Assembly: GCA_035557795.1 (NCBI GenBank)
Contig: DATMDM010000098.1
Location: 1 to 62,689, forward strand
Direction of reading: 5' to 3'
Length of the DNA: 62,689 nt
Source of the DNA: Thermoplasmata archaeon
GTDB taxonomy: Archaea; Thermoplasmatota; Thermoplasmata; RBG-16-68-12
The notes beneath the pieces are model-generated. The model did no database searches, was not told the origin of the DNA, and worked only from the letters and a program-made list of their open reading frames with translations. Shown in pieces: positions 36,332 through 38,491 of the stretch (position 1 is the stretch's first letter; each line of letters begins with the position of its first letter). The position numbers and the translations under genes were made by a program.

Positions 36332-38491
36332 TCACGGATACCGGATGACTTCCATCTCTCGCTCGAGTGTCTTGAGCTCTTGGTCCTTCAACGTCGCGGG
36401 CCCGAGGGAAATGATGAACGCGTAGCGACTCTCGGAGATCGCATCCAGCAGCCGTCGCACGAACATCAACACGGCGTCGAACGAACTGTTCGAAACCAGG
36501 TATTCGATTCCGTCCAAGAGGATGGCCCCGCGAGTCTGCTTCCCCATGAAGTCCTCGATCTCGTAGACGATTCGCTCGAGCGCAGGGGCGATCGTCTCCT
36601 CCGCAGAGCCCTCGCGGTCCGTGAGCCATAGGACGCGTTCCGTCGGCAAGTCATGGGCCTGCCGCACGCGTTTCGGGTTCGTGCGGGTGATGACCAGGCC
36701 GCCGCCCCCGCCACCGAGGAAATCCGTCAAGAGGCGGAACGCCCGGGCGGGTCGCTCCTCCTCTATCAGGTAGCTGCGGCCTGGTGTAAGCTCGTGGTTT
36801 GCCGTCGCGGCGCTCGGCGGACGGTCCGCCCGCTCCTCCGCAATCCGCTCATGCATCGGTTGCGCGATCGGTTCCGCCGTCGGTTCCGCGGTCGCACCGG
36901 ACAAGACTTCGCGGGCGAGATCCTGGGTGAGCGGGCGATGCATCAACGACGAGAACGCGACGACCCGATTGAAGGCCCCACCGAGCTCTCGGACGTTGTT
37001 GGCCACGAGGTTCGCGATGCACGTCAGCACTTCCCCCTCGATGGCGATGTTCTCGTCGCGAGCGCGACGCTCGAGGATGGTCACGCGCATCAGGAGGTCG
37101 GGAGGCTCGATGCCGGCGACGAGCCCGGATTCGAAACGCGAGATCAGGCGCTCGTCGAGGTTCGGGATCGACTTCGGGGCGCGATCGCTTGCCAGGACGA
37201 TTTGCTTCTGCGTGTCGTGCAAATCATTGAACGTGTGGAACAGTTCCTCGTGAACCTCCGGCATGCCGCTCAGGAACTGAATGTCATCGATCAGAAGGCA
37301 ATCCATGCCGCGCATGCGCTCCCGGAACGCGGAGAGGGTACCGACCTCCTTCGCGTTGGCGAGGCTCGACGCGAACGTTTCGCAGGTCATGTACAGCACT
37401 TTCGATTCCTTCGCATGGGACGCGACGTAATTCCCGATCGCATGGAGGAGATGCGTCTTCCCGAGGCCCGGCCCGGACGTGATGAGGAGCGGATTGTACT
37501 CCTTGGCCGGCTGCTTCGCGACCGCAACCGCGGCGCCGTGGGCGAACCGGTTGCTCTCTCCGACGATGAACGACTCGAACGTGTACGCCTGGACGAGATT
37601 CGTCGCCGCATCCCGCGCGGGCAACGATTCTTCGAGGCCCTTCCGCGCGACGTCTTCGGTCGAGTATGGACCGCCTTCGGGCCGCAGGGCCTGCTGTTGC
37701 TTCATGACGAGATCCAGGACCTTTCTCGTGCGCTCTTGCGAGTCTCGCCCTCGCTCCAGCTCGACCTGGCGACGCGCTTCGATCTGGCGCAGGCTCTCCA
37801 CCGCATCCCGGAGGCTTTCGACCTCCGTGTCGATGTCGGGGTGTCTCACGGGGTCCTTGAGTTTCTCCCGGAGAATCGCGGCTCGGGATTCGAATCCGGA
37901 AACGTCGAGGCCGGCCAACATCTCGCCGACGGCTTCGGCCTTCTTCACGCCGTCGCGCATCGCGACGACGGACGCTGCGAGGATTGATGGTTCGGCATCG
38001 AGGTTCGATTCGACGGAGGAGACGTCGTACCCTTTGTCCTTCCACGCGCGGATCTGCTTCTCGACCTCCGACCGTTCCATTGTCTGCGGGATCTTGGTCT
38101 TCTTGACGACCTTCGCGGGCCGTTCGAGGATCGAGTCCGCGTACTCTCTCACCAAACCGTCCATGTCGACTCGGGCGTGGAGCTCCAAGATGCACGACTC
38201 GTCGTAGGAGTCCTGCCAGACTTTCTTCAGCGCGCTCCGCCCGCGGTCTTGTGTGCCGTCCCGATGGTACAGGCTCGCCTCCGGGTTCCCGCCGCGGAGG
38301 AGGACGATTCCCTCGGACCGTTTCCCGCTCCCGCCCCGAACCGTGCGGACGTAGCCGGAGAACGAGTACTTCTTCAAATCGATGAGGAGCTGCTTGAGCG
38401 CGTTGGGACCGCCCCGCGTGGTACGGATGAGTTTTCCCTCTGGAAGGAGGAGGTCCTGGGGCGTAGAGGTCCCTCGGTGGCGACGGCCCAT
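36332..38491 (-). CDS. Fusion protein: DUF4388-like N-domain, coiled linker, bacterial DnaA-type AAA+ module, DUF835-like C-domain
   Basis: [21 protein letters not shown]...[23 protein letters not shown]...[10 protein letters not shown]...[28 protein letters not shown]...[27 protein letters not shown]...[12 protein letters not shown] is collinear with DnaA domain III. The C-terminus [11 protein letters not shown]...[12 protein letters not shown]...VLWLTD...ILLDGIEYL fits DUF835. ATG 38491 has CCTTTTTAGAGG 17 nt upstream, consistent with a leaderless transcript. The tracked start is 38551. Confidence 0.85.
   Translation of the reverse strand: [719 protein letters not shown]

What the first reader, a model, noticed from the sequence alone, without database searches (positions are those of the whole stretch)
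36332..38491. Bacterial DnaA-type AAA+ module in an archaeon, without the DNA-binding domain
Seen directly: residues around [50 protein letters not shown] ... [10 protein letters not shown] ... [63 protein letters not shown] ... [12 protein letters not shown] follow the DnaA domain III consensus almost motif for motif. This covers Walker A GxGKTHL, Walker B LLIDDIQF, sensor and box VII regions, and NVRELEGAL.

Archaea use Orc1/Cdc6 initiators, so a DnaA-type ATPase is unexpected here. DnaA domain IV (the DnaA-box HTH) is absent. It is replaced by a segment resembling DUF835 ([27 protein letters not shown]), a domain typical of archaeal signalling proteins. The N-terminus ([23 protein letters not shown]...[15 protein letters not shown]...GRSALKKVW) resembles DUF4388/PATAN-type domains.

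GC content and codon style match the neighbours, so contamination looks unlikely. Inference: a DnaA-derived oligomerising ATPase has been recruited as a switch or scaffold in the adjacent zinc-ribbon/KaiC locus.
Basis: partly seen in the sequence, partly recalled or inferred. Interest (0 to 1): 0.8.

Follow-up and report, generated by a model that had tools for sequence, protein, structure and literature searches.

The report
Archaeal DnaA-type ATPase fused to iKaiC
An uncultured soil archaeon (Thermoplasmatota) carries the ATPase core of the bacterial replication initiator DnaA, with no DNA-binding domain, inside a signalling-type protein conserved across its phylum; it looks like a borrowed bacterial replication part reused as an ATP-driven assembly switch, not as a replication initiator.

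Summary
The ORF at 36332-38551 (-), whose likely start is M21 at 38491, has four parts: a family-specific N-domain, a coiled coil, a complete DnaA domain III, and DUF835 (an inactivated KaiC-like domain). The DnaA module scores Pfam E=1e-60 and is 53% identical to B. subtilis DnaA, TM 0.93. DnaA domains I and IV are absent. The contig is archaeal and not chimeric: 78 Thermoplasmatota species carry the gene in conserved synteny.

Across 104 family modules the ATP-binding, hydrolysis and arginine-finger residues are nearly invariant. The DnaA ssDNA-contact residues are kept in Methanomassiliicoccales but replaced in the window's clade (A398, M430-P431-E432). In some lineages the DnaA module is degenerate. 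In 22 species it is missing from the same gene slot.

A convergent Zn-ribbon/helical-repeat gene follows in 59 of 70 loci. A highly conserved KaiC-like ATPase operon stays linked, and in about 40 species gyrB-gyrA lies between the two.

My best reading is an ATP-dependent self-assembling switch or scaffold in a KaiC-type hub, not an initiator. Database labels of "replication initiator DnaA" are over-annotations. The DUF4388/PATAN claim has only weak support. I found no literature describing this architecture.

The parts
36332..38551 (-). Whole ORF, 739 aa plus stop. The probable true start is Met21 at 38491, giving 719 aa.
   Evidence: ORF; M21 = MGRRHRG; homologues at 91-96% identity are 715-721 aa.
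38144..38446 (-). Family-specific N-terminal alpha/beta domain (aa 36-136), weakly PATAN/DUF4388- and DUF2226-like.
   Evidence: Conserved across the family. Confident model with pLDDT 89.7 and pTM 0.82. No PDB fold match. Of 16 relatives, one hits DUF4388 at 6e-4 and one hits DUF2226 at 3e-5.
37634..38074 (-). Long helical, coiled-coil linker (aa 160-306). In most other clades it ends in a CxxC...CxxC zinc ribbon, which is absent here.
   Evidence: Model helices H188-214 and H240-289. Zn ribbon seen in the alignment and flagged in roughly half of the loci.
36896..37600 (-). DnaA domain III: AAA+ base and lid, including the two initiator-specific-motif helices.
   Evidence: Model helices H390-403 and H406-414. 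Gap-free alignment to E. coli DnaA across this region.
37454..37474 (-). Walker A GPGLGKT (K365).
   Evidence: The Lys is conserved in 104 of 104 family modules.
37283..37297 (-). Walker B LLIDD (D422, D423).
   Evidence: Conserved in 103 and 101 of 104 modules.
37121..37153 (-). Box VII [11 protein letters not shown]. R468 and R472 correspond to E. coli R281 and the arginine finger R285.
   Evidence: Conserved in 88 and 96 of 104 modules.
36974..36997 (-). Sensor II [8 protein letters not shown] (R521 = E. coli R334).
   Evidence: Conserved in 97 of 104 modules.
37256..37264 (-). M430-P431-E432, at the positions of E. coli K243-E244-R245 (the ssDNA-contact 'B-motif'). The basic residues are lost in this clade. 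A398 (37358-37360) replaces the hydrophobic H-motif residue V211.
   Evidence: Bacterial DnaA keeps I/V in 36 of 36 and K in 35 of 36. Methanomassiliicoccales long forms keep I/L/V, K/R, E and R.
36800..36895 (-). Disordered Pro/Ala/Glu-rich linker (aa 553-584).
   Evidence: pLDDT below 50.
36335..36799 (-). DUF835, an inactivated KaiC-like (iKaiC) alpha/beta domain. SYLIEEERP occupies the P-loop position.
   Evidence: Pfam E=2.4e-25. Called iKaiC in PMC5847659. Weak collinear KaiC and FlaH matches.
34653..36320 (+). Convergent partner gene, 11 nt from the stop codon. It has three N-terminal zinc ribbons and a C-terminal alpha-helical repeat domain. Its true start is uncertain and probably lies downstream of 34653.
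   Evidence: A homologue begins within 900 nt downstream, convergent, in 59 of 70 loci.
33994..34713 (-). Single-domain KaiC-like ATPase with a conserved deviant P-loop, TGPPGSMKTS. It is the first gene of the KaiC / coiled-coil / CARDB operon.
   Evidence: Homologues are 58-100% identical across the phylum and lie within +-10 kb in 15 of 25 fully flanked loci.
32792..33928 (-). Coiled-coil protein with two C-terminal zinc ribbons.
29777..32575 (-). Membrane protein: extracellular CARDB region, one transmembrane helix, and a cytoplasmic tail with three zinc ribbons.
   Evidence: A larger paralogue lies at 21238-25836 (-).

Best explanation
The gene encodes a cytoplasmic multi-domain adaptor ATPase from a family found across Thermoplasmatota. 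Its order is N-domain (possibly PATAN-like), coiled coil, DnaA domain III, flexible linker, DUF835/iKaiC. It is not a replication initiator.

Shown: the DnaA module is structurally complete and has every residue needed to bind and hydrolyse ATP and to contact a neighbouring protomer through the arginine finger. It lacks the domains that give DnaA its origin specificity (domain IV) and its helicase and self-interaction functions (domain I). In the window's clade the residues that DnaA uses to grip single-stranded DNA are replaced.

Inferred: ATP binding drives head-to-tail self-assembly. Because the initiator-specific wedge helices are kept, the assembly should be an open helical oligomer, as in DnaA, not a closed ring. 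Hydrolysis would reset it. This makes the module a nucleotide-gated assembly switch.

Inferred: the terminal domains connect that switch to partners. DUF835, a KaiC fold without a P-loop, would dock on the conserved KaiC-like ATPase of the linked operon. The N-domain and coiled coil would dock on the adjacent Zn-ribbon/helical-repeat protein and, through it, on the membrane-anchored Zn-ribbon surface proteins. In this clade a nearby type IV pilus-like machinery may also be involved.

The core of the system is the N-domain-DUF835 adaptor. The DnaA module is an added regulatory layer that some lineages have inactivated or deleted.
For: 1. DnaA identity and completeness. Initiator-specific-motif helices are present.
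2. Selection on ATPase and oligomerisation residues in 104 modules: Walker A K 104, Walker B D 103 and 101, sensor I D 97, R281 88, Arg finger 96, sensor II 97, L290 101.
3. ssDNA-contact positions in the window clade are A/E, M, P and E/D. They are I/V, K, E, R in bacteria and in Methanomassiliicoccales. Overall identity to bacterial DnaA is equal for the two groups (0.489 and 0.475), so the loss is position-specific.
4. No domain I or IV. No Orc1/Cdc6 or other replication gene was found among the window ORFs scanned. The upstream intergenic region has no origin-like features.
5. The module is optional. Twenty-two species carry N-dom-DUF835 without it, in collinear flanks, nested among long forms on the DUF835 tree. 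In L070/L073/L076 and L045 the sensor II or Arg-finger residues are degenerate.
6. Partner linkage. The convergent Zn-ribbon gene is present in 59 of 70 loci, and the KaiC-like operon stays linked in two different gene orders. Most family members carry their own Zn ribbon. Other proteins fuse DnaA-III directly to double zinc ribbons or to MshEN.
7. DUF835 is classed as an iKaiC signalling output domain (PMC5847659). KaiC-like ATPases regulate archaeal pilus and archaellum systems (PMC10983859). PATAN binds type IV pilus motors (bioRxiv 10.1101/2021.06.11.447907).
8. PADLOC gives no hits.
Against: - No physical interaction, oligomerisation or ATPase activity has been tested. Every mechanistic step is inferred.
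- Synteny within one phylum can reflect vertical inheritance and not function. The KaiC-like gene lies 8-10 kb away, separated by gyrBA, in most lineages.
- The DUF835-KaiC relationship is sub-threshold in my own tests.
- The PATAN link is a single weak hit.
- Type IV pilus genes are linked only in the window and in 3 related loci.
- Methanomassiliicoccales keep the ssDNA-contact residues, and the gene sits beside gyrase and DNA-repair genes there. A DNA-linked role may be ancestral and may persist in part of the family.
Confidence: 0.5

Rival explanations
1. DNA-linked function. The DnaA module still assembles on single-stranded or underwound DNA. The protein would then report or act on DNA state (replication, supercoiling, repair) and pass this on through the iKaiC domain. 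The zinc-ribbon partners would supply nucleic-acid contacts in place of domain IV.
For: In about 40 species gyrB-gyrA lies immediately upstream, divergent with thiC between. AP endonuclease, OGG and an Lhr/AlkZ-like helicase lie downstream. Methanomassiliicoccales long forms and L038/L039 keep the bacterial ssDNA-contact residues I/L/V, K/R, E, R. AID-1 R227 and AID-2 L290 are largely conserved. The module stays as DnaA-like as bacterial DnaAs are to one another.
Against: The window's clade has replaced exactly those ssDNA-contact residues, with Glu at the R245 position. No dsDNA-binding domain is present. The same DNA-gene neighbourhood surrounds the short forms that have no DnaA module. The focal gene is not in an operon with the DNA genes. 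The window itself has no gyrase or replication gene nearby.
Confidence: 0.25
2. Evolutionary relic. The DnaA module is a largely functionless passenger left from an old bacterial transfer and now serves only as a spacer between the N-domain and DUF835.
For: The module has been deleted in 22 species and is degenerate in a few.
Against: Catalytic and Arg-finger residues are near-invariant over 104 modules that are only 35-57% identical to one another. That degree of conservation requires purifying selection on ATPase function.
Confidence: 0.08
3. Part of a mobile element or an anti-virus defence system, for example an IstB/DnaC-like helper ATPase.
For: There are weak secondary hits to IstB_IS21 (33 bits). 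STAND-like and AAA+ plus adaptor architectures are common in defence systems.
Against: PADLOC gives no hit for this protein or its four neighbours. The gene has a fixed, syntenic chromosomal position in 78 species. No transposase or integrase lies nearby. The gene is single-copy and its composition matches the host.
Confidence: 0.03
4. Assembly artefact: bacterial contamination or a chimeric contig.
For: None beyond the bacterial affinity of the domain.
Against: The fusion lies within a single ORF. Identical architecture and synteny appear in independent assemblies from different studies (L004-L006 at 99% identity, L001-L003). GC3 matches the neighbours.
Confidence: 0.01

Closest known systems
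Bacterial chromosomal replication initiator DnaA (domain III; e.g. B. subtilis 8bv3/8btg, T. maritima 2z4r)
   Same: The AAA+ base, lid and initiator-specific helices match at 44-53% identity, TM 0.92-0.93. Walker A and B, sensor I and II, box VII and the arginine finger are intact.
   Different: Domain I, the domain II linker and domain IV (DnaA-box HTH) are absent. The protein scores below the TIGR00362 cut-off (309 against 344 bits). ssDNA-contact residues are replaced in this clade. The host is archaeal. Foreign N- and C-terminal domains are attached.
Hda / HdaA (domain-III-only DnaA paralogue that inactivates DnaA-ATP)
   Same: Both are DnaA-family AAA+ modules without a DNA-binding domain that act, or may act, through protomer contacts.
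   Different: The relationship is much more distant: 93 bits against a 195-bit cut-off, 22% identity, and a stem length of 1.44 in the tree. Neither a clamp-binding motif nor a DnaA target for Hda-type action was found in this window.
Archaeal REC-DUF835 and other iKaiC signalling proteins (Galperin et al. 2018, PMC5847659; Makarova et al. 2017)
   Same: The C-terminal DUF835 (iKaiC) output domain is the same. They occur in the same taxa (Methanomicrobia, Thermoplasmata) and have a proposed link to KaiC-like ATPase hubs.
   Different: The input is a DnaA-type AAA+ and a novel N-domain, not a receiver or PAS domain. No held paper mentions DnaA and DUF835 together.
PatA-type PATAN (DUF4388) regulators of type IV pilus motors
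   Same: There is a possible distant similarity of the N-domain. A type IV pilus-like operon and pilin-like proteins lie in the window. An MshEN-DnaA-III fusion exists elsewhere.
   Different: The similarity is sub-threshold and not detected for the window protein itself. The partner domain is an AAA+ and not REC.
Other non-canonical DnaA-III proteins found here (tandem DnaA-III 'AAA family ATPase' of Gemmatimonadota RMH68997.1; MshEN plus two DnaA-III; coiled-coil plus DnaA-III plus double zinc ribbon)
   Same: They have the same DnaA-III module outside a replication-initiator architecture.
   Different: The flanking domains differ and, where known, the hosts are bacterial. They have no DUF835.

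Membership tests
DnaA, chromosomal replication initiator (TIGR00362 / PF00308+PF08299+PF11638) | AAA+ domain III with Walker A/B, sensor I/II, box VII Arg finger and initiator-specific motif | tested here: met
   Pfam Bac_DnaA E=1.3e-60. TM 0.93 to 8bv3. All residues present.
DnaA, chromosomal replication initiator (TIGR00362 / PF00308+PF08299+PF11638) | C-terminal domain IV (helix-turn-helix that binds DnaA boxes) | tested here: not met
   No Bac_DnaA_C hit. The TIGR00362 alignment stops at profile position 341 of 437. DUF835 occupies the C-terminus.
DnaA, chromosomal replication initiator (TIGR00362 / PF00308+PF08299+PF11638) | N-terminal domain I (DnaA_N; DnaB and self interaction) | tested here: not met
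   No Pfam hit in aa 1-320. A different, family-specific fold is present.
DnaA, chromosomal replication initiator (TIGR00362 / PF00308+PF08299+PF11638) | Whole-protein score above NCBIfam equivalog cut-off | tested here: not met
   309.3 bits against a cut-off of 343.9.
DnaA, chromosomal replication initiator (TIGR00362 / PF00308+PF08299+PF11638) | ssDNA-contact residues (E. coli V211, K243, R245) | tested here: not met
   The window has A398, M430 and E432. The residues are kept in Methanomassiliicoccales relatives.
DnaA, chromosomal replication initiator (TIGR00362 / PF00308+PF08299+PF11638) | Origin context (adjacent AT-rich unwinding element and repeats; dnaN) | tested here: not met
   Upstream GC is 0.52-0.63 with no repeat array. 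No dnaN or Orc1/Cdc6 was found among the window ORFs scanned. DnaA-box motifs were not searched for specifically.
Hda / DnaA-related inactivator (TIGR03420) | Score above cut-off; domain-III-only protein with an N-terminal clamp-binding motif | tested here: not met
   92.8 bits against a cut-off of 194.8. The protein has three further domains.
DUF835 (PF05763) / iKaiC | Pfam match above the gathering score | tested here: met
   89.3 bits against 33.1, E=2.4e-25. All 17 aligned relatives also match.
DUF835 (PF05763) / iKaiC | KaiC/RecA-like fold with an inactivated P-loop | tested here: inconclusive
   The model is an alpha/beta fold, and SYLIEEERP replaces the P-loop. KaiC Pfam hits appear in 5 of 17 members (best E 0.004). 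PDB KaiC and FlaH matches are collinear but have E 0.13-2.9. hhalign against the neighbouring KaiC-like protein is not significant. The classification itself comes from PMC5847659.
PATAN / DUF4388 (PF14332) | Profile match of the N-terminal domain | tested here: inconclusive
   The window's N-domain gives no hit at E<=10. Of 16 relatives, one hits DUF4388 at 6.3e-4 and one hits DUF2226 at 3.4e-5. No solved structure is available for comparison.
Orc1/Cdc6 (archaeal initiator) | Best AAA+ affinity to the Cdc6/ORC clade, plus a C-terminal winged helix | tested here: not met
   No Cdc6 family was hit. AAA_22 scores only 28 bits against 205 for Bac_DnaA.
DnaC / IstB helicase-loader clade | Best AAA+ affinity to IstB/DnaC | tested here: not met
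   IstB_IS21 scores 33 bits and NCBIfam IstB 51 bits against a cut-off of 200. DnaC scores 16 bits.
KaiC-like ATPase signalling hub (sensu Makarova et al. 2017) | Genomic association of an iKaiC protein with an active KaiC-like ATPase | tested here: met
   A KaiC-like gene lies 1.6 kb away in the window. It is linked in 15 of 25 fully flanked loci, in two different gene orders.
KaiC-like ATPase signalling hub (sensu Makarova et al. 2017) | Physical interaction or regulation between the iKaiC domain and the KaiC-like ATPase | not testable with these tools
The defining paper (PMC5717392) is not held.

The most novel reading that the evidence does not exclude
The DnaA ATPase core entered the Thermoplasmatota ancestor from a bacterium together with the adjacent gyrB-gyrA genes, as a remnant of the bacterial dnaA...gyrB origin-region cluster. 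It was then spliced into a pre-existing N-domain-iKaiC adaptor. In lineages that keep the ssDNA-contact residues, it would still polymerise on unwound DNA. A bacterial initiator module would then act in archaea as a sensor coupling DNA or replication state to a KaiC-type timing and signalling hub and to cell-envelope machinery.
Probability: 0.1. Interest if true: 0.9.

Novelty: new variant of a known kind. Interest (0 to 1): 0.62.

Why it matters
DnaA is the textbook bacteria-only initiator, and archaea are textbook Orc1/Cdc6 users. Here a catalytically intact DnaA ATPase core has been conserved for a long time across an archaeal phylum, built into a signalling-type protein. This matters in four ways.

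1. It is a natural experiment in how an initiator AAA+ module can be reused as a generic ATP-gated assembly device. Clades range from DnaA-like ssDNA-contact residues, through loss of those residues and degenerate ATPase motifs, to complete deletion of the module.
2. It corrects a systematic mis-annotation. Public records call these proteins "chromosomal replication initiator protein DnaA". That label could mislead replication-origin predictions and metabolic or cell-cycle reconstructions for Thermoplasmatota and Methanomassiliicoccales, including gut methanogens.
3. It adds a new input module to the poorly understood archaeal KaiC/iKaiC networks.
4. Its adjacency to bacterial-derived gyrase in about 40 species gives a concrete hypothesis about what else came with gyrase into archaea.

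Tried and rejected
- N-domain fold search against the PDB found nothing significant (best E=0.016, TM<=0.41).
- An N-domain profile search of the 5.8-billion-protein set returned only gene fragments of the same family. It found no other architectures and no DUF4388-annotated hits.
- hhalign of the DUF835 profile against the neighbouring KaiC-like protein was not significant. The DUF835 profile against PDB sequences gave only sub-threshold KaiC and FlaH hits.
- A neighbour-joining tree of 216 DnaA-III modules rooted on E. coli Hda was star-like, with internal branches of 0.00-0.05. It resolved neither monophyly of the archaeal modules nor a bacterial donor. I therefore make no claim about the donor.
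- PADLOC gave no hits, so I rejected the defence reading.
- I looked for origin-like features upstream and for Orc1/Cdc6 among the window ORFs and found none.
- Contamination or chimera was rejected on synteny and composition.
- The key KaiC-hub paper (Makarova et al. 2017, mBio; PMC5717392) is not held. I cannot exclude that it already lists this architecture.
- The Zn-ribbon partner's C-terminal domain gave only weak TPR, MIT and three-helix-bundle signals.
- Type IV pilus linkage was tested across loci and holds only for the window and L011, L013 and L014. I therefore keep it as a secondary speculation.

Limits: the genome scan used a single peptide pattern, so the taxonomic range is a lower bound. 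The trees have no support values. The full-length model rests on 17 sequences.

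
Full report
**Observation.** The minus strand carries one ORF at 36332-38551 (739 aa). That start gives 719 aa, which matches homologues at 91-96% identity that are 715-721 aa long. 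Pfam finds Bac_DnaA at aa 320-479 (E=1.3e-60, profile positions 2-161 of 162) and DUF835 at aa 604-733 (E=2.4e-25), and finds no DnaA domain I or IV. NCBIfam TIGR00362 (DnaA) scores 309 bits, below its 344-bit cut-off, because only profile positions 99-341 of 437 (domain III) are matched. Hda scores 93 bits, IstB 51 and DnaC 16. By sequence the best solved relative is B. subtilis DnaA at 257 bits, followed by T. maritima at 198, Aquifex at 139 and Hda at 32. An AlphaFold model (mean pLDDT 79.9) shows four folded units joined by disordered linkers. Its AAA+ unit superposes on B. subtilis DnaA domain III at TM 0.93, rmsd 1.5 A and 53% identity.

**Host and authenticity.** GC3 of the gene (0.81) matches its neighbours (0.75-0.91). 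The window contains an intron-bearing tRNA that Rfam detects but ARAGORN does not. It also contains an archaeal Pilin_N protein and ELP3 and a type IV pilus-like operon. The protein has more than 100 relatives at 60% identity or above with the same architecture, named 'DnaA/Hda family protein [Thermoplasmata archaeon]' where named at all. A scan of one genome per GTDB species with the DUF835 profile returned 78 loci, all Thermoplasmatota: Thermoplasmata, Methanomassiliicoccales and Proteinoplasmatales SG8-5. The closest are soil MAGs at 99% identity. Independent assemblies show identical synteny. Contamination or chimerism is excluded.

**Family anatomy.** An exhaustive search of clusters at 50% identity finds about 70 clusters of this family. 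Ordinary bacterial DnaA follows, at about 450 aa and 46-53% identity over domain III. An alignment of 17 full-length members at 28-73% identity shows four features:
- a conserved N-domain;
- a variable coiled coil which, in most clades but not the window's, ends in a CxxC...CxxC zinc ribbon;
- the DnaA module;
- DUF835, with invariant residues including Y594, E597, E598, R623, W642-L643-T644 and D703.

The N-domain folds confidently on its own (pLDDT 89.7) but has no solved structural relative. A profile search finds it in no other architecture. Pfam scans of 16 N-domains give one DUF4388 hit (6e-4) and one DUF2226 hit (3e-5), and nothing for the window protein. DUF835 is classed in the literature as an inactivated KaiC ('iKaiC') output domain of archaeal response regulators (PMC5847659). 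My own tests give only weak, collinear KaiC and FlaH signals.

**What selection preserves.** I mapped E. coli DnaA functional residues onto 104 DUF835-linked modules. These are conserved:

| Residue | Conserved of 104 |
|---|---|
| Walker A Lys | 104 |
| Walker B Asp (two positions) | 103 and 101 |
| Sensor I Asp | 97 |
| R281 | 88 |
| Arginine finger R285 | 96 |
| L290 | 101 |
| Sensor II R334 | 97 |

The positions that contact ssDNA in DnaA (V211, K243, R245; assignment from my knowledge of the E. coli H/B-motif work) are variable. The variation follows clades. Methanomassiliicoccales long forms and L038/L039 keep I/L/V, K/R, E, R as bacteria do. The window's clade has A/E, M, P, E/D (A398, M430-P431-E432). 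Other Thermoplasmata groups have N/K/D/D or E/S/E/A. Overall identity to bacterial DnaA is the same for the window clade (0.489) and Methanomassiliicoccales (0.475). The archaeal groups are as far from each other (0.35-0.57) as from bacteria (0.40-0.53), while bacterial DnaAs average 0.56 among themselves. The module is therefore old in this phylum and under strong constraint for ATPase and protomer contact. The window clade's loss of DNA-contact residues is position-specific. A rough NJ tree places all modules within DnaA proper, far from Hda, but is otherwise unresolved.

**The module is optional.** Of the 78 species loci, 51 complete and 5 truncated ORFs have N-dom-DnaA-III-DUF835. Another 22 encode a 335-460 aa N-dom-DUF835 protein without the DnaA module. 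Long and short forms in Methanomassiliicoccales sit in collinear flanks, so they are positional orthologues. On a DUF835 tree the 19 short Methanomassiliicoccales forms make one clade nested among long forms, and a second short group arises separately. This favours loss over gain, though the tree has no support values. A few long forms (L070, L073, L076, L045) have degenerate sensor II or Arg-finger residues. The core unit therefore appears to be the N-domain-iKaiC adaptor, with the DnaA module as an accessory layer.

**Neighbourhood.** In the window the gene converges, with an 11-nt gap, on a gene for a protein with three zinc ribbons and a helical-repeat C-terminus. A homologue occupies that position in 59 of 70 loci. 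Next comes an operon with three genes:
- a KaiC-like ATPase that is 58-100% identical across the phylum and has a conserved deviant P-loop, TGPPGSMKTS;
- a coiled-coil/Zn-ribbon protein;
- a CARDB, transmembrane, triple-Zn-ribbon membrane protein.

In Methanomassiliicoccales and a second Thermoplasmata group the same operon lies on the other side of the focal gene. It is preceded by gyrB-gyrA, and AP endonuclease, OGG and an Lhr/AlkZ-like gene lie downstream of the Zn-ribbon partner. The KaiC-like gene is within +-10 kb in 15 of 25 fully flanked loci, often right at the edge. The linkage of the two blocks survives a rearrangement, which is modest evidence for a functional tie. The window also holds a type IV pilus-like operon at 13403-19862 with two T2SSE and two T2SSF genes, but that linkage recurs only in three related loci. 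PADLOC finds nothing. No Orc1/Cdc6 was found among the window ORFs scanned, and the 750-nt upstream spacer has no origin-like features.

**Interpretation.** I think the most likely reading (about 0.5) is a nucleotide-gated self-assembling switch or scaffold, tethered by its terminal domains to a KaiC-like ATPase hub and to Zn-ribbon scaffold and membrane proteins. In the window's clade it probably works without DnaA-type ssDNA binding. The main rival (about 0.25) is a DNA-linked role, suggested by the gyrase and repair neighbourhood and by the retained ssDNA-contact residues in Methanomassiliicoccales. That rival is weaker for the window protein itself, and the same neighbourhood surrounds the short forms that lack the module. 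Relic, defence and artefact readings are unlikely. Elsewhere, DnaA-III is fused to double zinc ribbons, to MshEN, to HEAT repeats, or to itself in tandem. This shows that the module is a reusable part outside replication.

**Novelty.** No held paper mentions DnaA together with DUF835. Reviews of archaeal replication (PMC3984812, PMC11880632) do not mention an archaeal DnaA-type protein, and neither do the gyrase and replication phylogenomics papers (PMC9348778, PMC3914693). The paper that defined iKaiC is not held, so prior mention there cannot be excluded. The family is already in databases under automatic names, some of which read 'chromosomal replication initiator protein DnaA'. That label is not justified by the domain content. 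I class the finding as a new variant of known kinds: a DnaA-family AAA+ module within an iKaiC signalling protein.

Noticed in passing
window 51200-52045 (+): A 281-aa protein with a strong Ras-family small-GTPase match (Pfam Ras 119.6 bits, Roc 97 bits), encoded in an archaeal window.
   Followed up: no
window 13403-19862 (+): A five-gene type IV pilus-like operon: a DUF7289 protein, a T2SSE ATPase with a PilB3-like C-terminus, two T2SSF platform proteins, and a second T2SSE ATPase. A T2SSE homologue lies within 10 kb of the focal gene in L011, L013 and L014 as well.
   Followed up: partly
window 5746-6519 (-) and 6516-8042 (-): A second KaiC-like pair with a 4-nt overlap. One is a 257-aa KaiC-domain protein (178 bits). 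The other is a 508-aa GvpD-like protein with a P-loop and basic region 2.
   Followed up: no
window 33994-34713 (-): The KaiC-like neighbour has a deviant Walker A, TGPPGSMKTS, with Met where the canonical Gly precedes the Lys. The motif is conserved in 34 homologues across the phylum, together with TLEE and LDSLGALYSLME.
   Followed up: partly
L084 2499-8136 and about 40 other loci (e.g. L028, L043, L058): A gyrB-gyrA operon, with an intein in gyrB in L084, lies between the KaiC-like gene and the focal gene. AP endonuclease, OGG and an Lhr/AlkZ-like gene lie on the other flank. The DnaA-type gene beside gyrB recalls the bacterial dnaA...gyrB cluster. The gyrase literature I read does not mention it.
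   Followed up: partly
window 9178-9292 (-): A 115-nt tRNA that Rfam finds (53 bits) but ARAGORN does not. Its length suggests an intron, as is typical of archaea.
   Followed up: no
window 21238-25836 (-) and 29777-32575 (-): Two large paralogous membrane proteins (1532 and 932 aa). Each has an extracellular CARDB region, one transmembrane helix and a cytoplasmic tail with several zinc ribbons. The same ribbon type recurs in four proteins of the locus and inside most DnaA-DUF835 relatives.
   Followed up: partly
proteins P0140/P0146, P0150/P0162, P0141/P0159, P0163 (not in the window): Other non-replicative DnaA-III architectures: tandem DnaA-III (Gemmatimonadota 'AAA family ATPase' RMH68997.1), MshEN plus two DnaA-III (1876-1990 aa), long coiled coil plus DnaA-III plus double zinc ribbon (1348-1420 aa), and HEAT repeats plus DnaA-III plus DUF835.
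   Followed up: partly
window 38552-39307: An unusually long spacer of about 750 nt lies between the focal gene and the divergent phosphoglycerate kinase gene. It holds only small ORFs (for example a 73-aa two-helix hydrophobic ORF at 38778-38999, minus strand), no Rfam match, no AT-rich stretch, and one 16-nt direct repeat pair.
   Followed up: partly
window 44342-45025 (+) and 52046-53737 (-): A TMEM175-type potassium-channel homologue (Pfam 77.9 bits) and an ELP3-like radical-SAM protein.
   Followed up: no
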